Below the pieces are notes generated by a model, which worked only from the letters and a program-made list of their open reading frames with translations, did not search any database and was not told the DNA's origin. Both the position numbers and the translations under genes were made by a program. Positions 413-57,599 of a DNA stretch of 64,000 bases are shown here, piece after piece. This DNA comes from Acidobacteriota bacterium. Its GTDB lineage: Bacteria > Acidobacteriota > UBA890 > WLXD01. The stretch is taken from contig CAXWPL010000001.1 in the NCBI GenBank assembly GCA_963666215.2, positions 128,001 through 192,000 of the forward strand. Reading direction: 5' to 3'. Each line of letters starts with the position of its first letter. Position 1 is the first letter of the stretch.

Positions 413-1588
413 TTATACGCCGCGGCCGTCGACCAAGGCCTCGACCCGCCGCGCGTTGTGATCCCACGTACGTTCTTCTAGGACGCGAGCCCGACCCCTT
501 TGGCCGACTCGCTGGCGCAACGATTCGTCGTTCACGAGCCGCCGCACGGCGTCGGTGAGCGCCTCCTCGTCGTCGGGCGGGAAGGTCAGCGCGTCAACGT
601 CAGGCTCGACAACGTCGAGGATGTTCGCCGAGTGCGGCGCCACAACCGCGGTGCCGGCCGCAAGATACTCGAGCAGCTTGAGCGGGCAGGCGTAGAACGT
701 CGTCTTGGGGCTGACGGTGATATCCATCGCACCCAGGTACGGTGGGATCTCGGCATGGTCGACACGACCCGTGAACACAACCCGCGCCGGTCCGCACATC
801 TCGGCAGCAGCCGCGCGGAGCTCCGGCAAAGCGGGACCGTCTCCGACCACCAACAGCACGACCGGCGGCCGGGCACCGTCTCGCTCGCGGGCGATCTTGT
901 CAACTGCTCGCAACAGGCCGTCGACCCCGTGCCAGGCGCGGATGAAGCCGACGAAGCCGACAACGACCGCGTCGGGCTCGATACCCCATTGCGCCCGGAT
1001 AGCCTCACCGGCAGGGGGCTCGGCGTACAGCTCAGTGTGAATTGCGTTCGGAATGACCTCCACCGGAGTCTCCACGCCCTGCTCCAGTAGGTAATCGCGC
1101 AGCGGACTCGACACCACCAGCAGACGGTCCGCCGCGTCGAAGCAGGCGCGTTCCCACGCCTTGGCCAGGCGTTCGAAGTGCAGCCCGCGGAGCTCGTCGC
1201 CGGATCGCTCCAGCGCCAGCGGCGCGTTCACCTCGAGCAGCAAAGGCACTCCCACCGCTCGAGCCGCTGCCACAGAAGAGCGCGTGTACACGGCATGTCG
1301 CGCGTAGACAACGTCGGGTCGCGTGGCGAGAGCTCGCCGCCGCCCGCGCATTGCATCGAGATGGCCGTACACAACCTCGCCGAGCTCGACAAGCGCCCCC
1401 GGCGCCATCGACAGCAGCGAGCTCAGCCGCGTGCGGCCGCTCACGGCGCCGGGGTCGACGATCGAATCGCCCCCTGGAGCGTGGACGTCGACAGCGTGAC
1501 CGCGCGCGCGGAACGCGTCGATCATCGCCCGGATGTGCACTCCTTCCCCGCCGTCGCCAAGCGATCGGTGCATATAGAGGATGCGCAT
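413..1588 (-). CDS. Glycosyltransferase family 4 (GT-B)
   Basis: MRILYMH..GGEGVHI N-terminus; VIPNAI, GFVGFIRAWHGVD, VVGDGP, FTGRV and PLKLLEYLAAG motifs. Confidence 0.92.
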   Translation of the reverse strand: MRILYMHRSLGDGGEGVHIRAMIDAFRARGHAVDVHAPGGDSIVDPGAVSGRTRLSSLLSMAPGALVELGEVVYGHLDAMRGRRRALATRPDVVYARHAVYTRSSVAAARAVGVPLLLEVNAPLALERSGDELRGLHFERLAKAWERACFDAADRLLVVSSPLRDYLLEQGVETPVEVIPNAIHTELYAEPPAGEAIRAQWGIEPDAVVVGFVGFIRAWHGVDGLLRAVDKIARERDGARPPVVLLVVGDGPALPELRAAAAEMCGPARVVFTGRVDHAEIPPYLGAMDITVSPKTTFYACPLKLLEYLAAGTAVVAPHSANILDVVEPDVDALTFPPDDEEALTDAVRRLVNDESLRQRVGQRGRARVLEERTWDHNARRVEALVDGRGV

Positions 1589-8695: not shown

Positions 8696-10726
8696 GTGGG
8701 CAACTTCTTGGTCGTCCTTGGCGATTGCAACCCGGGCCAGAGCGACCGCGAGCGGCCGCAAGCGCAGGCGCACTTCGAGGCTGGGCTGCACGTCGCGGCC
8801 GAATGGCTCGATCAGCGTCCGCGAAGCGCGCATGTGGCCGACGACGTATGCGTCGCTACGTTCGCACGGCACAACGGCAGCGGTGGTCGGCTCGCGGTCG
8901 ATCCGGATCCGCGCAGCGGCGGCTGGCTACTGATGGCGGGCTCCTGGGTGCACCGCGACGGCTTCGGCGAGGGAGACGAGCACAGGCTGCTCGAGCATCT
9001 GCAATCGCTAGGTCGCGCCGACCCGCCAGACGCGCCCGATCCGACAAGCAGCACGCGCGAGATCGCGCCTGAGGTCCACCACGGGGTACGTGAGCTGGCG
9101 CGCGGCTTCGACGGACAGTTCGTGCTTCTCGCGGGCGGCGTCTGCGGTACGCGCCTGCTGATCGTCACCGATCTTTTCGGCAGCTATCGCTGCCACCAAC
9201 GGCACGACCTGCCTGGTGTGTTTGCCACCTCCGGCTCATCGTTTCTCCTGGCCTCGCTGGCCGCCACTGATATCGATCCGGTGGGCACGCAGGAACTGCT
9301 GTACAGCGGAGCAATCAACGAGACCCGCACGCTCCACCGACAGGTTTCAAAGCTCGACGGCGCTCACATCACCACCTTCGGGCGCCGCCTGCGGCCGCGT
9401 AGCCAACGCTACTGGAGCTATGGCGAGCTGCAGCCGGAAACGATGGGGCGCGGCGAGTCTGTCGAACGTTTCGCGGCAGCCCTCCGAGGCGCGTCGAAGT
9501 CGATCGTCACGAACTTCCCACGACCAGTCTGCGACCTCACGGGTGGATACGACTCGCGCGCCGTCTTGGCCGGCCTCCGCAGCGCGAACGCGCAGCCCGC
9601 CACCACAGTCTGTGGCGCCGACTCCGACATCGACGTCGCGCTGTCACGCAGGATCGCCGAACAGCTCTCGCTGCCGCACCGGTGTATCGCACGCGCCGAC
9701 TCCACACGCCTGAGCGATCTGAGCGCGGCTCTCCCGTACACCGACGGTGAGTACGACAGTCTGGAGTATGCCAGCATTCTGCGCGTACACCACGAGCTCG
9801 CCCAGACCCACGACGCCAGCATCAACGGCTCTTTTGGCGAGGTCGCGCGAGGCTATCGCTTCGATCTCCTGGCGCCGCGTCTCGGCGCCAGGCAGCCTCT
9901 CGACGCTCGTCGAGTGGCGCGACGCCAGTTCGCGGCGACACCGCACACGGCGGAGCTGTTCGCTGCCGGGGAGCGGCTCGATCTCGCGGAACACACAGCC
10001 GAAATCGTGGAACGATGTGTCGGCGACTACGGTGGCGCACCCAATACTTTCCAGCTTCACATCGCCTACCTCGAAATCCGCATGCGAGGCTGGCAAGGCC
10101 GCATCGCATCGAGCACCAACCGCGTCTGGCCGCTGTTTTCTCCGCTGATGTTCCGACCCGTAATCGAGGCCGCTCTCGAGACCCGCAGCGTCGATCGACG
10201 ACGCAGCTTGCTGGTGCGTCGAATGCTGGCGGATTTCCATCCACTGCTGGCGGCGTTGCCGGTGACCGAGGGTTATCCCGCAGCCCCGATGACGCGACGC
10301 AACGCGCATCGGTTCTGGCCGCTCCTGAACGTCGCCGCAGGAGCATTGGGACGTCGCTTGCCCTTCGGAGGAGCCCTTGTGCGACGTCTCGCCGATCGTG
10401 GCGCAAACGCCGCCGGCCTCGCCGCGGCGGCACAGCGGGCTGCGCAGAGGCGACAAGGTCTGATGACGGAGCGCGACTCGAGCCCGATGACCCAGCTGGT
10501 AGCAGATCCGACCTCGGCGCTGAGCTCGATGCTGGACGCCGAAGGCTACGCCGCCTTCATGCAAGCCGCCGCGCGGCCCGAGTTCGGCTACGACGCGCAG
10601 TGGCGCAGGCTTGTCACAATTGAGCACACCTTCGCCGAGCTCGCCGTGGCAACAGCGGTCGCGCGCCGGGTTTACGAGGCCAAGGTCGGTTCGCCGATCG
10701 AAACAACGGTGCGCCACATCGCCTAG
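8696..10726 (+). CDS. Asparagine synthetase B-like ATP-dependent amide ligase lacking catalytic Cys1
   Basis: FDGQF, TDLFG, RYW, PP-loop [22 protein letters not shown] motifs. Confidence 0.75.
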
Positions 10727-49814: not shown

Positions 49815-51170
49815 TCAGCCGGGAGACCTCATCGGCTGCGCCCGCGATACGTCGTGGAGCTCGGGCGCCGCGTCGAAGCCCAGCGACTCGAGACGACCGC
49901 TGAGATCCGAGGTGATGTCGGTGTCGGCGTCACGCCCACACAACACGCCTACCGACAACGCCGCCGGGTCGAAGAGCTCGCGACCCAGTGCCTGCACCTG
50001 CTCGAGGCTGACGGCGTCGATCTCGGAAAGGATCTCCTGTAACCCGATTGACCGGCCGAACGAGATCTGCTGGCGCGCCAGATTCGACATGCGGCTGGAG
50101 CTATTCTCGAGGCCGAGCATCATGCTGCCCTTGACGTGATCTTTCACACGCGTCAACTCTTCGCTCTCGATCGGCCGATCGCACAGCGCTTCGAGCTCGG
50201 AGGCGACCAATTCGAGCACCTTGCCCACCGCGTCGCGCCCGGTCGCCGCCGAAATCCACACGTAGCCGGCGTCCGCGTAAACGCCAATGCTGGAATAGAC
50301 GTTGTAGGCGAGCCCATGCTCCTCACGGATCACCTGGAACAAACGCGACGACACGCTGCCGCCGAGCAGCGTGTCGAGAAGGTGAAGGGCGTATCGGTCG
50401 GTGCCATTCGCCGAACGCCCGGGGCCTGCGACGTAGAGGTGCGCCTGTTCGAGATCATGGCGCGTGAGCAGCATGCAGTGGCGACTGGCAACCGGCGCCT
50501 CAGTCTTCTCAGGTGGCGGTGAGGCCTCGCGTCCTCCAAGAAGCCGATCCGCGAGGACCGTGAGCGCCTCGTGGTCGACGTTGCCGGCGGCGGCCACGAT
50601 CAGCTCAGAAGGACTAACGCTCTCGAGGTAGGCGCGCAGCTGTTCGGGGCGCAGAGCGGTAACGGTCTCGCGCGTCCCCAGGATGGGTCGGCCTAGCCCA
50701 TGTCGAGGCCAGAATCGCGCGGCGAAACGCTCGTAGAGAACCTCCTCTGGAGAGTCGTCAACGCCGGCGATCTCCTCCAGAATCACTCCACGCTCGATCT
50801 CCATATCGTTGCTTGCGAGGCGAGGATCGCCCACGAGATCGGCAAGAAGCTCGAACGCGCGTTGCAGGTTCTCGTCGAGGACCGTGGCGTAGTAGCAGGC
50901 GTGCTCCTTGGCGGTGAACGCATCCAGTTGCCCGCCCATGGCGTCGATCTCCAGCGCGATGTCGCGCGCCGAACGCGAGACCGTGCCCTTGAACAACATG
51001 TGCTCGAGGAAATGCGCAGTGCCGCCGAGCTCGGCCGCCTCGTCGCGCGACCCGCGGGTAATCCACAGGCCAAGAGAAACCGAACGCACCGCGGGCATGC
51101 GCTCGCTGACCACGGTGACACCGTTATCGAGCACAGTTGCACGGCCCACACGGGCGAATGTCTCGGTCAT
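49815..51170 (-). CDS. M16 (pitrilysin-family) zinc peptidase
   Basis: LDNGV, GSRDE, HFLEH (HxxEH), SSRLFQVIREEHGLAY. ATG at 51170. Confidence 0.93.
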   Translation of the reverse strand: MTETFARVGRATVLDNGVTVVSERMPAVRSVSLGLWITRGSRDEAAELGGTAHFLEHMLFKGTVSRSARDIALEIDAMGGQLDAFTAKEHACYYATVLDENLQRAFELLADLVGDPRLASNDMEIERGVILEEIAGVDDSPEEVLYERFAARFWPRHGLGRPILGTRETVTALRPEQLRAYLESVSPSELIVAAAGNVDHEALTVLADRLLGGREASPPPEKTEAPVASRHCMLLTRHDLEQAHLYVAGPGRSANGTDRYALHLLDTLLGGSVSSRLFQVIREEHGLAYNVYSSIGVYADAGYVWISAATGRDAVGKVLELVASELEALCDRPIESEELTRVKDHVKGSMMLGLENSSSRMSNLARQQISFGRSIGLQEILSEIDAVSLEQVQALGRELFDPAALSVGVLCGRDADTDITSDLSGRLESLGFDAAPELHDVSRAQPMRSPG

Positions 51171-51237
51171 GCCGGTGGGCGCTCTGACGTTAGCAATGCT
51201 CGGTGACTCACCACCGCCGCGTGTACAGCTGGTTGCG

Positions 51238-52155
51238 CTAGGCTTTCCCGAGTAACCACAGCATGATCGCCTTCTGCGCGTGCAGCCTGTTCTCCGCTTG
51301 ATCGAGCACCACCGAAATGTCGGAGTCGAGCACCTCGTCGGTAACCTCCTCGTTACGGTGTGCCGGCAAGCAATGCATGAAGCGTGCGCCGGCGTTGGCC
51401 TGCGACATGAGCTTGGTGTCCACCTGGAAGCCCTCGAATCGCGCCAGCTTCTCGGCCCCACCTTCCTGGCCCATCGAGACCCACGTGTCGGTGTAGACGG
51501 CGTCGGCACGGGACACCGCAACCATGGGATCGGTGCCGACTTCTATCGTGGTGCCGGCAGCGGAGGCCATCTCCTGGGCGCGCGCCACAATCCCGGCGTC
51601 GGCGGGGTGCTCGGCGGGCGTGGCGACCGCGACGTTCACTCCGAACAGCGGCCCGGCGAGCATCAGCGAGTGCGTCATGTTGTTGCCGTCGCCCACGTAG
51701 GCGAGCTTGAATCCACCGAGATCGCCGAACTGCTCGCGCAGCGTGAGGTAGTCGGCCATGACCTGGCACGGGTGCAGCAGGTCCGAGAGTCCGTTGATCA
51801 CCGGCACGGTGGCATTCGCCGCCAGCTGCTTGATGTCGTCGTGAGCGAAGACCCGCGCCATCATGATGTCGAGGTAGCGGGAAAGCACGCGCGCGGAGTC
51901 GGGAATGGTCTCGCCACGCCCGAGCTGCAAATCGCTCGACGACAAGAACAACCCCGTGCCGCCCAGTTGGCTGATGCCGACCTCGAACGAAACGCGCGTC
52001 CGAGTGGACGGCTTCTGGAAAATCATGCCGAGCGTGAGACCGGCACAGGCATCGCGGAACGATTCCGGCCGTTGCTTGACGTCGGAGGCCAGTCCCAGCA
52101 GCCAGGCCAAGTGGTCGGCGTCGTGATCGGCGACGGAAATGAAGTGGTCGAGCAT
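51238..52155 (-). CDS. argF: Ornithine carbamoyltransferase (probably catabolic ArcB from context)
   Basis: FQKPSTRTR, HPCQ, YVGDGNN, WVSMG, FMHCLP, QAENRLH. Confidence 0.95.
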   Translation of the reverse strand: MLDHFISVADHDADHLAWLLGLASDVKQRPESFRDACAGLTLGMIFQKPSTRTRVSFEVGISQLGGTGLFLSSSDLQLGRGETIPDSARVLSRYLDIMMARVFAHDDIKQLAANATVPVINGLSDLLHPCQVMADYLTLREQFGDLGGFKLAYVGDGNNMTHSLMLAGPLFGVNVAVATPAEHPADAGIVARAQEMASAAGTTIEVGTDPMVAVSRADAVYTDTWVSMGQEGGAEKLARFEGFQVDTKLMSQANAGARFMHCLPAHRNEEVTDEVLDSDISVVLDQAENRLHAQKAIMLWLLGKA

Positions 52156-52267
52156 CGTTCGGTCTCCTGCGGCTGGCTACGTCAGCCTTGACGGGTTTGC
52201 TTGGCGGCTTCGAATAATCTCGAAGAGTGTTGGCCGGGGACGGTCCCCGTTGCCGGATAGCTGAGCT

Positions 52268-53413
52268 TCAACGTTCGGGCTTCGTCTCGAGAGCCCGAGA
52301 GTCGTCGGAATGCACTCGGGTGCCAGCATCGCCGACCATGGCCTCGCTGAGGCAGCTTGCCGAGGTGATCAGAACCTCGCTGCGGGTTCGCTCGGCGAAG
52401 TCGGCGGCGGCCGAGATCTTCGGGCCCATGCTGCCGGGCGGGAATTCACCCGCTGCCACGCGCGCACGCGCCTCTGAAACACCCAGGTGCTGCATGCGGC
52501 GCTGACGTTTCGTCCCGAAGTCGGAGTAAACCGCGTCGACAGCCGTCAGCGAAATCAGCAAACCAGCGCCCACTGCTTCGCCCACGAGCGCGGCCGTGTG
52601 GTCCTTGTCAACAACGCCGTCGACGGCGCGCCACGCTGGCGCGTGGAAACTGCCGCTATCTCCTGACATGCCCGTGTGAACTTCGGAATCGGCGCTCGTT
52701 CGCAGCGGTACCCGCCGCCGAACACCGGCGAGCACACCGCTCGGCAGCTCGAGCCCTTCGCCCGAGCGCACCAACGGAATGCCGCCACCGCCACCGGCGA
52801 TCACAACCGCGCCAATCTCGACGAGCTGTCGAACGAGGTCGGCGTTGAGCAATCGAAGCGGGCGCGGCGACGGCACGACTCTTCGCCAGCCCCGTCCAGC
52901 ATCGGAGATCATCTTCCAACCCCAGTCCTGCTGCAGCGTCGCCGCCTGCTCTTTTGAATAGAAGGGGCCGATCGGCTTGGTTGGCGCCCTGAGCCCGCTG
53001 TCATCGGCGTCGACTTCCACGAGGCTCAACACCGCGGCCACCGACCGTTCGGCACCCCGGCCAGCAAGCGCGTTGCGGACCCCGAGCTCGATGAGGAAGC
53101 CCATGCTTCCCTGTGTAGCCCCGACGTGCCCGGCCAGGGACATCGGCTCGACCTCCGTGGCCGAGTAGCGGTCGCGCAGCAAAGCAGCGCCGACCTGCGG
53201 GCCGTTGCCGTGCACCAGCACTAGCTTGGTCTCGGTGCCCAGCGCATCAAAAACCCTCTCGACGGCTTCACGGGCAAGCTGCGCTTGGAACAACTCCGAC
53301 TCGTTGCCGCGCGGACTGAGCGCGTTGCCGCCGAACGCCACGACCACCGGGCCGCCAGCCGCGGCGGCCACGCACCCGCCCACGCTCGGATGCAGAGCGC
53401 CTGCGTCACGCAC
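52268..53413 (-). CDS. arcC: Carbamate kinase
   Basis: VVAFGGNA, HGNGPQVG, PTKPIGPFY, WRRVVPSP.P, GGGGIP, VDKD, GSMGPK. Confidence 0.95.
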   Translation of the reverse strand: MRDAGALHPSVGGCVAAAAGGPVVVAFGGNALSPRGNESELFQAQLAREAVERVFDALGTETKLVLVHGNGPQVGAALLRDRYSATEVEPMSLAGHVGATQGSMGFLIELGVRNALAGRGAERSVAAVLSLVEVDADDSGLRAPTKPIGPFYSKEQAATLQQDWGWKMISDAGRGWRRVVPSPRPLRLLNADLVRQLVEIGAVVIAGGGGGIPLVRSGEGLELPSGVLAGVRRRVPLRTSADSEVHTGMSGDSGSFHAPAWRAVDGVVDKDHTAALVGEAVGAGLLISLTAVDAVYSDFGTKRQRRMQHLGVSEARARVAAGEFPPGSMGPKISAAADFAERTRSEVLITSASCLSEAMVGDAGTRVHSDDSRALETKPER

Positions 53414-53438
53414 GCCGATGCTTCAGCTGTCCGGGCTC

Positions 53439-54765
53439 TCAGCCGGCCGACTCGACGAACTTCGCCAGCGGCTCGGACAGCGTCGGGCTGCCGATCTCCT
53501 GCAATTCGTAGGTAACGCGCAGCGCCGGCACGTCGATGTTCACAAGAGCGCGAAGGTCGATCGGCGTTGCGATGACCACGAGGTCGCACGGGGTAGCGTT
53601 GATCGTCGCCTCGAGATCGCGGATCTGCTCGTCGCCGTATCCCATCGCCGGGATCACCACCTCGGTCTGCGGGTACTGCTCGAAGGTTTCCGCGATGCTT
53701 CCGACGGCGTAGGGATGAGGATCCACGAGCTCCGCGGCCCCGTGCTTCATCGCCGCCATGACCCCGGCACCGTACTCCATCTCCCCATGAGTGAGCGTCG
53801 GTCCGTCCTCGATGACGAGCACCCGCTTACCCGAAATCTGCTCGGCTCCCTCGACAAACAGCGGCGAAGCACCGTCGACGACTGTCGCACCTGGATTGAC
53901 CTCGCGAATGTTGTAGCGAACCTCGTCGATGCCTTCTGGGGCCGCGGTATCGATCTTGTTGATCACCACCACGTCGGCGCGACGCAGGTTGGCCTCACCG
54001 GGGTGGTGGGTCATTTCATGGCCTGGCCGGTGAGGATCGACGACGACGATCTCGAGGTCCGACTTCACCAGTGGAAAGTCGTTGTTGCCGCCGTCCCAAA
54101 CGATGATATCGGCCTCTTTCTCGGCCTCGGCGACGATCGCTCCGTAGTCGACACCGGCGTAAACAACAACGCCTCGGCGAATGTGGGGCTCGTACTCCTC
54201 GCGTTCCTCGATGGTGCACTCGTGGGTGTTCAAGTCCTCGAGGGTCGCAAAGCGCTGAACCCTCTGCTTGACCAGATCGCCGTACGGCATCGGATGGCGA
54301 ATCGCCACCACCCGCCTTACCCATCCCCTGCAAGATCTCCACGACACGCCGTGTCGTCTGGCTCTTGCCGCAGCCGGTGCGGACGGCGCAAACCGACACG
54401 ACGGGCACCTGCGACCCAACCATGCCGTGCTTGGCGCCGAGCATCCGATAGTCGGCGCCAGCGGCGATGACACGCGAGCCCAGATGCATTACGTCCTCGT
54501 GGGAGACGTCGCTGTAGGCGAAGACAGCCTGGTCGACATCGTGATCCTCAATCAACTGCTCGAGGTCGTCCTCGGCGTAGATCGGGATACCGTCGGGGTA
54601 CAGATCGCCGCACAACTCGGCAGGATACGTGCGGCCGTCGATGTCGGGAATCTGCGTAGCGGTGAACGCGACGACTTCGTAGCGCTCATTGTCGCGGAAG
54701 TAGACGTTGAAGTTGTGAAAATCGCGACCGGCAGCACCCAGAATCAATACGCGTGAGCGTTCCAT
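53439..54765 (-). CDS. arcE: Arginine synthetase ArcE-like P-loop NTPase (COG2403, cDPG-synthetase-related), split by one extra base near 54315; 441 aa if corrected
   Basis: ORF 54016..55146 supplies ILGAAGRDFHNFN, AFTATQIP, FAYSD, AVRTGCGKSQT. ORF 53439..54473 supplies RHPMPYGDL, TIEEREEYE, WDGGNND, EDGPTLTHG, PAMGY. Junction ATG GGT AAG (G) CGG GTG. Confidence 0.85.
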
Positions 54766-54961
54766 AGAGAAAGAGTCCCCTTGAGCGATGAAGTGACGGA
54801 GTCCGGACCGCGTCGTCAGGGGAACACGGAACCCGCCGCGTTCGGGACACATGCGGCAGAAGGCACGGGAACGCGTCGCGTACCACGTTAGCACCGGCCG
54901 AGAAATGGGGTCAAACGAGCCCTCCGATCGCTGAGATCGTCTCGGCATATGTCTCGATGGC

Positions 54962-55522
54962 CTATTCGAGACGGTGTACGAGCCCACCGGGCCAGACAGC
55001 ATAGCGTCCCAGGCAATCAGCCGCACCACGCCGGAACCACGCACGCGCCTGAGCGTCGACGAGCAACCCGGCGACGCCGGCAATCGGCTCGAGCTGACGC
55101 GCTGCGCCGCCAGGGCCAACCACGAGGGAGATTCGCACGGCGACACCGCGACCCAAGATTGTCGTGCTCGGCGTCGAGGTGAGCGGAGGTATCGGGAAAT
55201 GGCGCAGCGCCGCGTCCAGCGCCGGCGGTGAGGCAGAGGTCAGCACGCCCGCAGCTCCGGCGCCGTTACCGTTCAGCAGCTCGACCGCCGCTGCGGTCGG
55301 GACCAGTCGCGCATCATCGCCAATCAGGCGCTCGATCTCCAGAAGAGTGGCGCCGCAAAGGGCCCGGGCTTGCGCGCCGTCAGCGTCGTAAGCGCCGGCT
55401 TCGTAGGCAACAAACGTCTCCGCCAGCAACATTGCCAGCAACACAGACATCGTGGCGGTGGCGGCCACAACCGTCAGTAGGGCGGCTCCCGAGTGCGTGC
55501 AATCACGGGCAGTGTCAGCCAC
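54962..55522 (-). CDS. PilX/GspK-like minor pilin
   Basis: G|AALLTVV hydrophobic helix lacking Glu5; last gene of the minor pilin set. Confidence 0.6.
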   Translation of the reverse strand: MADTARDCTHSGAALLTVVAATATMSVLLAMLLAETFVAYEAGAYDADGAQARALCGATLLEIERLIGDDARLVPTAAAVELLNGNGAGAAGVLTSASPPALDAALRHFPIPPLTSTPSTTILGRGVAVRISLVVGPGGAARQLEPIAGVAGLLVDAQARAWFRRGAADCLGRYAVWPGGLVHRLE

Positions 55523-56366
55523 CGATGCGAACCGATCTCCGTACGACGCGTAGTGTCTTCAGCGACCCTGCGGACGTCTCCGACGTGCCCGGTAGGCCGA
55601 GCGTCATGGAGATCTCCAAGTCCAGCAGACGGGCTGGAACGTCGCCGCTGACCTGTAGAACCTGCATCGACCAGCTCGAAAACCCGTCCGCGAGCGGCTG
55701 CCACGGGCCCGCGCCGTTCCGACGACGCAGGCTGAGTGTCGCCAGCGGGCCCACGCTCACGCCTTCAACGACCGCGTATTCCCGCAGCACCAGCGGCTGC
55801 AGCGCCCGCGGCACTCCCCATGCGTCGATCGAGCTTTGCTCGTCACCCCAGGTAATGAGCAGCCTCGACAGGCCGTCGATCGCTACGACTCGTCCCGCCG
55901 GAGCCGGGCTCGCGACCGGGTGACCCGGTTGTCCGAGAGCCGCCACCATGCCGACGACGACGACCTGCGGCAAGGGACGAGCGGTGAAGAGGTTCGCGCC
56001 GGCCAGCGCAACCTCGAGCGTCGGGCCGTCTGGGACCAGCAGTCGCAGCGACTGTCCGCCCGCGGCTACAACCGGGACCCGAGTGCCCTCGAACGTGATC
56101 GAGGCACTCCCCTCCAATCCGTCACCAGCTCGCTCCACGTCGGCAACGACGGCAGCGAGCGTCGCACGAGCGAGCGAGGTAGCAGCCAGCCGCCTCTCCA
56201 ACGTCGCAGCGGCCGAGCCGCCGCCCACGACGAGAGGCAGAATCGCCGCCGCGAGCAGCCCGGTGCACGCCGTCGCCACCAGCAACTCGAGCAGGCTCGT
56301 CCCGTGCACGCGCTCGTCGGCACACGCCACTGACGCCACCGCGCCGCCCGTTTCAGATTCGCCCAC
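55515..56366 (-). CDS. PilW/GspJ-like minor pilin
   Basis: G|TSLLELLVA prepilin motif; GPWQPLADG..MQV near the C-terminus. GTG start immediately after the upstream stop. Confidence 0.65.
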   Translation of the reverse strand: MGESETGGAVASVACADERVHGTSLLELLVATACTGLLAAAILPLVVGGGSAAATLERRLAATSLARATLAAVVADVERAGDGLEGSASITFEGTRVPVVAAGGQSLRLLVPDGPTLEVALAGANLFTARPLPQVVVVGMVAALGQPGHPVASPAPAGRVVAIDGLSRLLITWGDEQSSIDAWGVPRALQPLVLREYAVVEGVSVGPLATLSLRRRNGAGPWQPLADGFSSWSMQVLQVSGDVPARLLDLEISMTLGLPGTSETSAGSLKTLRVVRRSVRIGG

Positions 56367-56367
56367 C

Positions 56368-56841
56368 TCAGCGCGCCACCAAGAGCACCGCGTGAGCAGC
56401 CGTGGCGCCCGGCCCAGTCGGCTCGGAAATACCCGAGGCACGTGGTCCGCACGCAGCCTCAACACGGAACCAGAGGAGCACACCCTGCTGCACGAGCTCG
56501 ACCCGCCGCCAGCAACGCGGGGCTCGGCAGTCGAGTTCCTCCGTCGGCGAGACTGCGGCCACGTCGTCGACTGTGGCGAGGGCGCCGTCAGGGCCAGCTG
56601 CCCCGATCGGCTGCCAACCAACAGGATAGACAAGCGCGGGATGCGCGGCAGCGGCGGCGCTCTGCGCGCCTTCGAGAGCGCAGGCGGCATCCTCAGCGCG
56701 CGCAACGCGCTCCACGGTGGCGGTCAACACCGAGCCGATCGCGATCAGTCCCACACTGAGCAGCGCCAGGGCGACAACCACCTCGAGCAGGGAGAAGCCG
56801 CCGCGTTCGAGGTGCGGTGACGCCAACCTCCATCGGGCCAT
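56368..56841 (-). CDS. PilV/GspI-like minor pilin
   Basis: RGG|FSLLEVVVALALLSVGL. Confidence 0.7.
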   Translation of the reverse strand: MARWRLASPHLERGGFSLLEVVVALALLSVGLIAIGSVLTATVERVARAEDAACALEGAQSAAAAAHPALVYPVGWQPIGAAGPDGALATVDDVAAVSPTEELDCRAPRCWRRVELVQQGVLLWFRVEAACGPRASGISEPTGPGATAAHAVLLVAR

Positions 56842-57059
56842 CGCCCGTTGCAACGAGGCGCTCGGACCCGTTCGGGTCGGAGGTCGAGACGATGGGCGGT
56901 GGCGGCGAGGCCAAGTTCGATCGGCAACGGGATTGCGCATGACAATCCCTTTAGATGGTCACCGCCCGTCGCTTTCCTGGGCGCTGGGATGGCGTCGGAG
57001 AATCAATCATCAAACCGAGCGCAAACACCGCCGCGTCGATGCTCCTGCTCCAGGCCGTG

Positions 57060-57599
57060 CTAGTAGCCGTAGGCCCACATCGAGACTTCGACCCGTCCCG
57101 TCGCTCGATTGAACTCGACCTCGAAGGTGTCGCCGATCGAGTTGCTCAGGTACACCGCGTCGGTGGCGGCGGTGCTGTCGCCGAGCGTACCGTCGGGATG
57201 GAAGAACAACTCGGCGCCGGGAACGTCGATGGGCCCGCCAGAAGGTCCGCCGCTGAACGTAACCCCGAAGGGCAACCCTCGCGGGACAGCGTCGAGCAGC
57301 GTCCCGGTGGCGGCGTCGCCCTCGAATAGGCTGAAGGTCCCCGCGCCCACGTTGAACGCGATCGAGAATTCATCGCTCTGGCTGACGGCGCGCATGCGTT
57401 GCAGCTGTATGGTCGTGGCGATCTCTTGTGCGGCTGAGCGCGTGCGATAGCGATCGAGCCACGACTGCATGGCTGGCAGGCCGATCACTACGAGAATTCC
57501 GATGACCGCCATGGTCACGATCAACTCGATCAAGGAAAAGCCGCGCTGGCCGCCGCCAAGCGTGGAGCTCCACTTCGTCCGGGCGCGAAGCACGCTCAT
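57060..57599 (-). CDS. FimT/GspH-like minor pilin
   Basis: QRG|FSLIELIVTMAVIGIL; F.PDG and TGRV C-terminal motifs; GGAGG RBS. Confidence 0.8.
   Translation of the reverse strand: MSVLRARTKWSSTLGGGQRGFSLIELIVTMAVIGILVVIGLPAMQSWLDRYRTRSAAQEIATTIQLQRMRAVSQSDEFSIAFNVGAGTFSLFEGDAATGTLLDAVPRGLPFGVTFSGGPSGGPIDVPGAELFFHPDGTLGDSTAATDAVYLSNSIGDTFEVEFNRATGRVEVSMWAYGY

What the first reader, a model, noticed from the sequence alone, without database searches (positions are those of the whole stretch)
51238..54765. arcE-arcC-arcB operon: ATP-conserving arginine synthetase pathway without arginine deiminase, hidden by a frameshift
Seen: three tightly linked minus-strand genes. The first is a P-loop protein split over two ORFs that rejoin after removing one base; it is followed by carbamate kinase and ornithine carbamoyltransferase. 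No arginine deiminase (arcA) is in the window. Known: motifs such as GAAGRDFHNFN, RTGCGKSQT, RHPMPYG, WDGGNND and EDGPT mark the COG2403 family, usually annotated as GTPase or cDPG synthetase. Its Thermococcus kodakarensis member ArcE was shown to convert Arg + ADP + Pi to citrulline + NH3 + ATP reversibly. Inference: this bacterium degrades arginine with two substrate-level ATP per Arg, against one for the ADI pathway, or makes arginine from citrulline without ArgG/ArgH. Automated annotation would miss it. I know of no characterised example in this lineage.
Basis: partly seen in the sequence, partly recalled or inferred. Interest (0 to 1): 0.85.

Follow-up and report, generated by a model that had tools for sequence, protein, structure and literature searches.

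The report
Frameshifted arginine synthetase gene cluster
This bacterium carries the known ATP-saving arginine-breakdown gene arcE next to carbamate kinase and ornithine carbamoyltransferase, but in this strain arcE is split by what looks like a real one-base insertion, so the pathway is probably switched off here.

Summary
On the minus strand lie an arcE-type P-loop gene in two frames (54765-54316 and 54314-53439), a carbamate kinase and an ornithine carbamoyltransferase. Dropping one base at 54315/54316 gives a 441-aa product.

The family is the published arginine synthetase (ArcE) family. It is only remotely like cDPG synthetase. The paper already reports it as widespread in bacteria, Acidobacteria included, and this scan has met such operons many times.

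The frameshift does not look like an assembly slip. Contigs from four public runs (three studies) cross the site without a gap, and three of them are slightly different strains. A near-identical strain in the protein collection has an intact 441-aa allele, so the break is polymorphic. Alleles of this species also carry residues never seen at three conserved positions, which fits relaxed selection.

The genome has argG, argH and carB, no arcA, and no second OTC. The "arginine without ArgG/ArgH" reading is therefore unnecessary. The two-ATP pathway is most likely inactive in this strain.

No direct alignment to TK2200 was possible. Interest is low: a known pathway with a broken member. One loose end is that breaks recur at the same loop in other taxa.

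The parts
54316..54765 (-). arcE, N-terminal part (codons 1-150, M1 to K150): N-terminal domain plus strand 1, P-loop (RTGCGKSQT) and helix 1 of the nucleotide-binding domain
   Evidence: It is 63-77% identical to the same part of 19 relatives. Pfam and NCBIfam give no hit.
54315..54316 (-). Site of the extra base: one G too many on the coding strand, AAG-G-CGG. It falls between K150 and R151, in the loop between helix 134-147 and strand 152-156 of the model.
   Evidence: position; secondary structure; no gap at this place in contigs of 4 runs.
54016..54314 (-). Out-of-frame continuation of the N-terminal ORF: about 99 aberrant codons (AGGGDSPSDAVRR...) up to TGA 54018-54016. It overlaps the C-terminal part.
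53439..54314 (-). arcE, C-terminal part (R151 to G441 plus stop). Gene callers start it at GTG 54311 (290-aa products P0124, P0121).
   Evidence: Pfam gives only a weak cobW/HypB/UreG nucleotide-binding match.
52268..53413 (-). Carbamate kinase (arcC). The frame is open from 53413. The database product P0125 (367 aa, 99%) implies a start at GTG 53371. It carries an insert of about 40 aa (roughly 52619-52750) after the GGGGIP motif.
   Evidence: AA_kinase 84.7 bits. TIGR00746 266.9 bits, under the cut-off of 358..
51238..52155 (-). Ornithine carbamoyltransferase (arcB/argF), 305 aa. It is the only OTC found in the genome.
   Evidence: TIGR00658 378 bits against a cut-off of 281; the second hit is pyrB.

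Best explanation
The locus is a bacterial arginine synthetase cluster, arcE-arcC-arcB, in an Acidobacteriota genome. arcE sits in its ancestral place, between pilin-like genes and an M16 peptidase/purB. A carbamate kinase-OTC pair of a type foreign to the closest relatives has been inserted behind it.

In the sequenced strain arcE carries a genuine one-base insertion after codon 150, inside the nucleotide-binding domain. The expected products are a 150-aa N-terminal piece with a ~99-aa nonsense tail and, at best, a 290-aa C-terminal piece restarted at a GTG. I infer that this allele is inactive or nearly so, and that arcE is under relaxed selection in this species. In this strain the first, ATP-conserving step (Arg + ADP + Pi -> citrulline + NH3 + ATP) is then not running.

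OTC stays intact and works with carB, argG and argH. Carbamate kinase also stays intact.

Shown: the gene order, the family, the extra base in DNA of several strains, the intact allele, and the gene content of the genome. Inferred: loss of activity, relaxed selection, and the biochemical reaction itself, which is taken from the Thermococcus enzyme.
For: Family:
- 62-78% identity over the full length to homologues in 231 of 401 same-phylum genomes and in 80 loci of many bacterial and archaeal phyla.
- The solved cDPG synthetases give only 28.8 bits and 16% identity.
- The model (pLDDT 90.6) has LpxK 4EHY among its top structural neighbours. The paper named the same neighbour for TK2200p (section read).
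- Carbamate kinase lies directly downstream of arcE in 23 of 80 diverse loci, and both CK and OTC in 6 of 80.

Frameshift is real:
- Contigs of X7, X9, X10 and X11 (3 studies) span 54315 with 0 gaps.
- X9-X11 differ from the window by 2-4 substitutions, so they are other strains.

Polymorphic and decaying:
- The 90% cluster holds an intact 441-aa allele (P0122), two 290-aa forms, a 283-aa form and a 294-aa form.
- M37 (P0122), K215 (P0123) and H253 (window) sit where 89, 93 and 91 of 96 homologues have T, E and Y, and none has the new residue.
- The two substitutions seen in arcC are synonymous. arcE has one synonymous and one non-synonymous substitution.

Context:
- No arcA.
- argG and argH are adjacent, and carB is present.
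- There is a single OTC and a single CK.

Synteny:
- Five relatives have pilin-like genes, arcE, M16 peptidase and purB with no CK or OTC in between.
- The window's CK is at most 47% identical to relatives' CK (55% in G014). Its OTC is 35-42% identical (70% in G014, 56% in G021).
Against: - Inactivity is not shown. The break lies in a surface loop, and a GTG with an AAGG just upstream could restart the C-terminal part.
- An intact allele differing at only 4 of 441 residues exists, so the break is recent. It could be rare in nature.
- The sequencing technology of the four runs is not on record. If they share one technology with the assembly, a systematic error would repeat. I judge this unlikely, because a 5.4-kb contig at word depth 2.1 needs very accurate reads.
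- The relaxed-selection argument rests on 5 amino-acid differences among 5 alleles. Some could be assembly errors.
- No direct comparison with the characterised TK2200 sequence could be made.
Confidence: 0.6

Rival explanations
1. The split gene still works. Either the two pieces (N-terminal 150 aa plus tail, and a C-terminal 290 aa restarted at GTG 54311) assemble into an active enzyme, or some ribosomes shift +1 at AAG-G and make the full-length protein. In that case the two-ATP arginine pathway runs in this strain.
For: - The break is in a loop between helix 134-147 and strand 152-156.
- AAGG precedes GTG GTG at the junction, and gene callers chose that GTG as a start (P0121, P0124).
- Breaks at the same junction recur. 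G193 is one of only 5 genomes with in-contig disruptions among the 308 arcE-bearing genomes sampled.
- Of the 14 database proteins fetched, 7 to 9 leave the frame within about three residues of this junction.
- arcC and arcB remain intact.
Against: - Apart from G000 itself, 25 of the 26 close relatives with arcE read it in one frame. G012 alone is broken, and at other places. The frameshift is therefore not a conserved recoding signal.
- No stop or rare codon follows AAG, and there is no long homopolymer for transcriptional slippage.
- The split falls inside the P-loop domain and leaves a ~99-aa nonsense tail on the N-piece.
- The spacing between AAGG and the GTG is only 3 nt.
- G193 has no start codon before M159.
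- The window strain has gained H at the Y253 position, which is Y or F in 96 of 96 homologues.
- The database search that found the other junction breaks was biased towards that site.
Confidence: 0.18
2. The extra base is a sequencing or assembly artefact. The organism has an intact arcE and a working arginine synthetase pathway.
For: - An intact allele (P0122) exists at about 99% identity.
- The genome is in 5 long contigs, which suggests long reads.
- An uncalibrated scan flags 120 frame-switch junctions. The one that was read (L174) is a shift in a C-rich run at a gene's 3' end.
- The junction is G-rich (CAGGGGATGGGTAAGGCGGGTGGTGG).
Against: - Four runs from three studies, three of them different strains, carry the same base with no gap row at all over 3.7 kb.
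- The inserted G lengthens a run from 1 to 2, which is not a typical homopolymer error.
- The split form occurs in at least four assemblies, one of them on a 38-kb contig.
Confidence: 0.15
3. The protein is not an arginine synthetase but a cDPG synthetase or a GTPase of other function, and its place beside arcC and arcB is incidental.
For: - Sources name homologues 'predicted GTPase' or 'cyclic 2,3-diphosphoglycerate synthase'.
- The closest solved structure is cDPG synthetase.
- No bacterial member has been assayed. The two literature searches found only the two Thermococcus papers and a database paper.
Against: - Identity to cDPG synthetase is 16% and the score 28.8 bits, against 630-780 bits within the family.
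- Carbamate kinase follows the gene in 23 of 80 loci from many phyla.
- Among close relatives, the genomes G001 and G005, which have an arcA next to CK, lack arcE. This matches the complementary pattern in the paper.
Confidence: 0.05

Closest known systems
Arginine synthetase pathway of Thermococcus kodakarensis (ArcE TK2200, ArcB TK0871, ArcC TK2158). Michimori, Yokooji, Atomi 2024, PMC11032458: abstract and sections 6, 8, 12 and 15 read. PMC13260591: abstract only.
   Same: - It has the same three enzyme families.
- arcA is absent.
- arcE lies next to arcC and arcB, which the paper reports for some genomes.
- It is a P-loop fold with LpxK 4EHY as a structural neighbour (against section 8 of the paper).
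- Acidobacteria are already listed as holders.
   Different: - Here arcE is interrupted by a one-base insertion in the sequenced strain.
- argG, argH and carB are present, whereas T. kodakarensis lacks them.
- The carbamate kinase has an insert of about 40 aa and falls below the curated cut-off.
- The TK2200 sequence could not be obtained with the tools, so identity to it is unknown.
Cyclic 2,3-diphosphoglycerate synthetase of Methanothermus fervidus (PDB 8ORK, 8ORU)
   Same: It is the closest solved structure (Foldseek E 2e-19). There is weak sequence similarity over residues 204-329.
   Different: Identity is 16%, the score 28.8 bits and the TM-score 0.41-0.47. The gene context (CK, OTC) has nothing to do with cDPG.
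Classical arginine deiminase pathway (arcABC)
   Same: The two downstream enzymes are the same (OTC, carbamate kinase). Close relatives G001, G003 and G005 have a near-cut-off arcA directly beside their CK.
   Different: This genome has no arcA. Its only relative of that superfamily is a 279-aa dimethylargininase-like ORF.
Earlier ArcE operons noted by this scan on other DNA (for example e1-951247, e1-751790, e1-949473)
   Same: The gene trio and the reading are the same. Two of them are from Aminicenantes, which belongs to the same phylum.
   Different: None of those notes mentions a frameshifted arcE.

Membership tests
ArcE / arginine synthetase (TK2200 family) | Full-length (~440 aa) homology with the family's conserved blocks (GAAGRDFHNFN, GxGKS P-loop, RHPMPYG, WDGGNND, EDGPTLTHG) | tested here: met
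   All blocks are present, spread over two frames. They are invariant in 17 sequences. 178 of 441 positions are at least 90% conserved in 96 homologues.
ArcE / arginine synthetase (TK2200 family) | Sequence similarity to the characterised T. kodakarensis enzyme, and grouping with it in a tree against cDPG synthetases | not testable with these tools
   No tool returned the TK2200 or a Thermococcales sequence. The one genome-contig scan gave 80 loci with no Thermococcus among them. Indirect support: 62-67% identity to archaeal homologues (Aciduliprofundum, Thermoplasmatales, Bathyarchaeia).
ArcE / arginine synthetase (TK2200 family) | P-loop NTPase fold resembling LpxK (PDB 4EHY), as reported for the TK2200p model | tested here: met
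   The model has pLDDT 90.6. 4EHY is rank 3, E 4.6e-10, TM-score 0.63 on the target. Paper section 8 was read.
ArcE / arginine synthetase (TK2200 family) | Genomic link with arcC/arcB and a distribution complementary to arcA | tested here: met
   CK and OTC lie directly downstream. CK lies behind arcE in 23 of 80 loci. The genome has no arcA. The arcA-bearing relatives G001 and G005 lack arcE, while G003 has both.
ArcE / arginine synthetase (TK2200 family) | An uninterrupted reading frame giving the whole enzyme | tested here: not met
   There is one extra base at 54315/54316, also present in contigs of 4 runs. The feature is met by allele P0122 of a near-identical strain.
ArcE / arginine synthetase (TK2200 family) | Catalysis of Arg + ADP + Pi <-> citrulline + ATP + NH3 | not testable with these tools
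   This needs an enzyme assay.
Cyclic 2,3-diphosphoglycerate synthetase | Close sequence similarity to the solved M. fervidus enzyme | tested here: not met
   28.8 bits, E 5.5e-6, residues 204-329 only. 16% identity in the structural alignment.
Cyclic 2,3-diphosphoglycerate synthetase | Presence of the partner enzyme 2-phosphoglycerate kinase in the genome | not tested
Carbamate kinase (TIGR00746 arcC) | Score over the curated cut-off | tested here: not met
   266.9 bits against 358.25, and NF009007 262.6 against 266. The match is cut in two by an insert of about 40 aa. Pfam AA_kinase is met. The nearest database homologues (52-61% identity) are 317-373 aa.
Ornithine carbamoyltransferase (TIGR00658) | Score over the curated cut-off | tested here: met
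   378.4 bits against 280.85, and NF001986 404.9 against 306. The blocks STRTR, HPCQ, SMG and HCLP can be read; their role as OTC motifs is recalled.
Programmed +1 ribosomal frameshift (prfB type) | A shift site with a stop or slow codon in the A site and a Shine-Dalgarno-like element about 3 nt upstream, conserved among orthologues | tested here: not met
   GCG follows AAG, and AGGGG lies 6 nt upstream. Apart from G000, 25 of the 26 close relatives with the gene read it in one frame, as do all 80 diverse loci. The prfB features themselves are recalled.

The most novel reading that the evidence does not exclude
The loop after the P-loop helix (G149-K150-K/R151) is a recurrent break point of arcE genes in unrelated lineages. 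It is broken in this species, in the one-contig genome G193, and in seven to nine database proteins of other taxa, among them two pairs of related but distinct organisms that share the break. This could mean that a two-piece ArcE with an internal restart is viable. It could also mean that the site acts as a mutational on/off switch for the ATP-conserving step of arginine breakdown.
Probability: 0.1. Interest if true: 0.5.

Novelty: new member of a known kind. Interest (0 to 1): 0.2.

Why it matters
The pathway itself was published in 2024 and is known to be widespread, so another bacterial arcE-arcC-arcB cluster adds little. The locus adds three things:
- A natural, apparently recent loss-of-function allele of arcE that coexists with an intact allele in one species. 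This suggests the ATP-conserving step is dispensable for this organism.
- A case of operon assembly, in which a foreign carbamate kinase-OTC pair was inserted behind a vertically inherited arcE and replaced the lineage's own pair.
- A reminder that Pfam and NCBIfam still have no model for this family, so it is labelled 'GTPase' or 'cDPG synthase'.

For genome-scale metabolic reconstructions of this organism, arginine fermentation should not be assumed.

Tried and rejected
- **Direct comparison with TK2200.** No tool gave a Thermococcales sequence. The Atlas only says 'putative GTPase'. So no tree with TK2200 and cDPGS was built.
- **Habitat.** No habitat is claimed.
- **Genome-wide frameshift load.** My codon-bias scan flags 120 same-strand frame switches and places the arcE one 4 nt from the true site, but it is uncalibrated.
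  - I tested the five strongest with Pfam. Three are pairs of different complete genes in which the upstream frame stays open past its last domain. Two had no informative match.
  - The one that I read (L174) is a shift near the 3' end of a nucleoside phosphorylase gene.
  - The scan therefore cannot be used as a pseudogene count.
- **Promoter and terminator scans.** These were at chance level.
- **Hotspot test.** Of the genomes with two or more matches, G158 proved to be an N-filled gap. G094, G114, G212 and G332 are genes cut by contig ends, and the extra matches in G054 and G155 are partial second copies at contig ends. The second phylum sample had no in-contig frameshift in 77 arcE-bearing genomes. 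The unbiased evidence for a hotspot is thus 2 of 5 disrupted genomes, roughly p 0.07 by my rough estimate.
- **Complex prediction on the two halves.** Not run, because a pass would only restate the fold.
- **Second literature search.** It mostly returned unrelated 'Arce...' words.
- **Supplements.** The supplementary figures of PMC11032458 (S2B gene neighbourhoods, S10/S11 distribution and tree) could not be seen. They may already show Acidobacteria clusters.
Full report
**What is there**

Three genes lie head to tail on the minus strand of the window (G000:C1:128001-192000).
- The first starts at ATG 54765. It reads MERSRVLILGAAGRDFHNFN...VCAVRTGCGKSQTTRRVVEILQGMGK and then runs into about 99 nonsense codons (AGGGDSPSDAVRR...) up to TGA 54018-54016.
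- In another frame, the stretch from 54314 to the stop at 53439 reads RVVAIRHPMPYGD...WDGGNND...EDGPTLTHG....
- In 19 of 19 relatives' loci the two parts are one frame, joined as GK[K/R/D/S]V..(I/V)RHPMPYGD. The products whose start could be set are 436-449 aa.
- A piecewise comparison shows that codons 54765-54316 (150 aa) plus 54314-53442 (291 aa) equal a 441-aa database protein, P0122, at all but four residues. Exactly one G on the coding strand at 54315/54316 is extra.
- The second gene (53413 or 53371 to 52268) is a carbamate kinase. The third (52155-51238) is an ornithine carbamoyltransferase well over the curated cut-offs.

**Which family**

- Pfam and NCBIfam have no model for the first protein apart from a weak cobW/HypB/UreG match. 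Sources call its homologues "predicted GTPase" or "cyclic 2,3-diphosphoglycerate synthase".
- Against all PDB sequences the only hits are cDPG synthetases, at 28.8 bits over residues 204-329.
- A confident model (pLDDT 90.6) finds cDPG synthetase first (16% identity, TM-score 0.41-0.47) and LpxK 4EHY third.
- Michimori et al. 2024 (PMC11032458; abstract and sections 6, 8, 12, 15 read) describe ArcE in just these terms. It is only remotely like cDPG synthase. Its model resembles 4EHY. It is often near arcB or arcC, complementary in distribution to arcA, and widespread in bacteria including Acidobacteria.
- The family is strikingly conserved. Identity to P0122 is 54-78% among the listed matches of 231 of 401 same-phylum genomes and 77 of 401 genomes of a second phylum. 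It is 62-70% in 80 loci from many phyla, archaea included. The tally 231 of 401 includes one unpublished genome, G166.
- Carbamate kinase follows arcE directly in 23 of those 80 loci, OTC in 7, and both in 6.
- I could not obtain the TK2200 sequence, so membership rests on these indirect lines. I put it near 0.9.
- The phylum is Acidobacteriota. Source names on hits and the titles of the best loci say so, and two same-phylum genomes coincide with such titled loci.

**Is the frameshift real?**

- Contigs built independently from four public runs of three studies were laid on 51200-54900. Each run has a contig across 54315, and no inserted or deleted letter is listed anywhere in the 3.7 kb.
- X7 is identical and may be the source. 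X9, X10 and X11 differ by 2-4 substitutions, so they are other strains carrying the same extra base.
- The technology of the runs is not on record. A 5.4-kb contig at word depth 2.1 argues for very accurate reads.
- The 90% identity cluster of the C-terminal part has five members:
  - two 290-aa forms that start at the GTG just behind the break, one of which is the window's;
  - a 283-aa form;
  - a 294-aa form starting MGKRVV, which lacks the extra base here but is not joined to its N-terminal part;
  - the intact 441-aa P0122 on a 44-kb contig.
- The break is therefore polymorphic within the species.

**Signs of decay**

- Among these alleles, three substitutions hit conserved positions with residues seen in none of 96 homologues: M37 in P0122 (T in 89 of 96), K215 in P0123 (E in 93 of 96) and H253 in the window (Y in 91 of 96).
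- Two further differences (positions 303 and 355) are at variable positions.
- Forty per cent of positions are at least 90% conserved. Three of five changes at such positions is what neutral change would give.
- Between strains, arcE shows one synonymous and one non-synonymous substitution. arcC shows two synonymous ones and arcB none.
- The numbers are small, but they point the same way as the frameshift.

**Genome context**

The genome has 5 contigs, is 65% G+C and is 91.7% complete.
- It has no arcA over the cut-off. The only relative of that superfamily is a 279-aa dimethylargininase-like ORF.
- argG and argH are adjacent, and carB is present.
- The window's OTC is the only one; the second hit is pyrB. 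The window's CK is also the only one.
- argB gave no match and argC none over the cut-off. Ornithine may not be made de novo.

**History of the cluster**

- In five relatives (one of the same family, four of the same order) the order is pilin-like genes, arcE, M16 peptidase, purB, with nothing between arcE and the peptidase. In the window the CK-OTC pair sits in that gap.
- The pair is foreign to the close relatives. CK is at most 47% identical, 55% in G014, and none of theirs has the insert. OTC is 35-42% identical, except 70% in G014 and 56% in G021. Most order-level relatives keep their own CK and OTC side by side elsewhere.
- Three relatives have a near-cut-off arcA beside their CK, and two of these lack arcE.
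- More distant Acidobacteriota have arcE-CK-OTC with OTC 46-66% identical.
- I infer that a CK-OTC module from such a cluster was inserted behind a vertically inherited arcE and replaced the lineage's own pair.

**How it most likely works**

- In strains with the intact allele the three enzymes would carry out the published pathway. Arginine plus ADP and phosphate gives citrulline, ammonia and ATP. OTC then gives ornithine and carbamoyl phosphate, and carbamate kinase gives a second ATP.
- In the sequenced strain the first enzyme is cut inside its nucleotide-binding domain, between helix 134-147 and strand 152-156, and is most likely dead.
- OTC then serves arginine synthesis with carB, argG and argH. 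The carbamate kinase is left without its feeder.
- My confidence is 0.6 for this reading, 0.18 for a working split or recoded gene, 0.15 for an artefact, and 0.05 for a different function.

**A loose end**

- A search with the N-terminal ORF including its nonsense tail found proteins of other taxa (52-66% identical) that enter the same wrong frame.
- I fetched the 14 whose match covered at least 74% of the query, out of 25 with more than 62%.
  - Seven leave the frame within about three residues of the same junction (P0245, P0246, P0248, P0250, P0255, P0270, P0329), and two more probably do (P0257, P0264).
  - Three leave it 9-25 codons later.
  - One is an internal repeat and one is unclear.
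- That search favours this site.
- In the unbiased samples, 5 of 308 arcE-bearing genomes have in-contig disruptions. Two of them, the window and G193, break at this junction; G193 has an extra A in GGTAAAAAAGG.
- This may be a mutational or sequencing weak spot in the G-K-K codons, or a place where a split is tolerated. I could not decide.

**Verdict**

This is a known pathway, reported in this phylum and met repeatedly by this scan. Here it has a naturally broken first gene. It ranks as a new member of a known kind, and interest is low.

Noticed in passing
window 52619-52750 (approx.), inside the carbamate kinase gene: The carbamate kinase has an in-frame insert of about 40 aa right after the GGGGIP motif. 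None of the 28 relatives' kinases has it. The nearest database homologues, at 52-61% identity, are mostly long too (349-373 aa for four of five, against about 315-330 for ordinary ones). The insert pushes the protein under the curated arcC cut-off.
   Followed up: partly
window 51238-53413 against 49815-51170 and 54962-57599: The CK-OTC pair is inserted into an otherwise conserved neighbourhood (pilin-like genes, arcE, M16 peptidase, purB). It is only 35-47% identical to the CK and OTC of close relatives, which sit elsewhere in their genomes. This looks like replacement of the lineage's own pair by a foreign module.
   Followed up: partly
L078 (G193:C1) around 528329-528342; database proteins P0245, P0246, P0248, P0250, P0255, P0270, P0329: Other arcE genes are broken at the same G-K-K junction after the P-loop helix. 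P0248/P0250 and P0270/P0329 are pairs of related but distinct sequences that share the break. The cause is unknown: a weak spot for mutation or sequencing, or a tolerated split.
   Followed up: partly
whole genome G000: argB gave no match and argC none over the cut-off, while OTC, argG, argH and carB are present. The organism may depend on outside ornithine, citrulline or arginine. The genome is 91.7% complete, so absence is not proven.
   Followed up: partly
G000:C5:742419-743258 (L003:1234-2073, minus) and the neighbouring L003:2142-3092: A 279-aa dimethylargininase-like protein (111 bits, far under the cut-off) lies next to a 4-hydroxyproline epimerase (414 bits, just under the cut-off of 450). 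It could be another source of citrulline.
   Followed up: no
L174 (G000:C2:216706-219791), local about 1400-1480, minus strand: A pyrimidine-nucleoside phosphorylase gene loses its frame in a C-rich run a few codons before its end. The expected ...PLVLERHA-stop, overlapping the ATG of the next gene (a nucleoside transporter), lies in another frame. It is one of 120 frame-switch candidates from an uncalibrated scan.
   Followed up: partly
L045 (G012:C6) 8776-10084 and G203:C12:14897-15929: arcE is also broken in two other genomes of the phylum, at other places: at least two frame changes in G012, and several deletions in G203.
   Followed up: no
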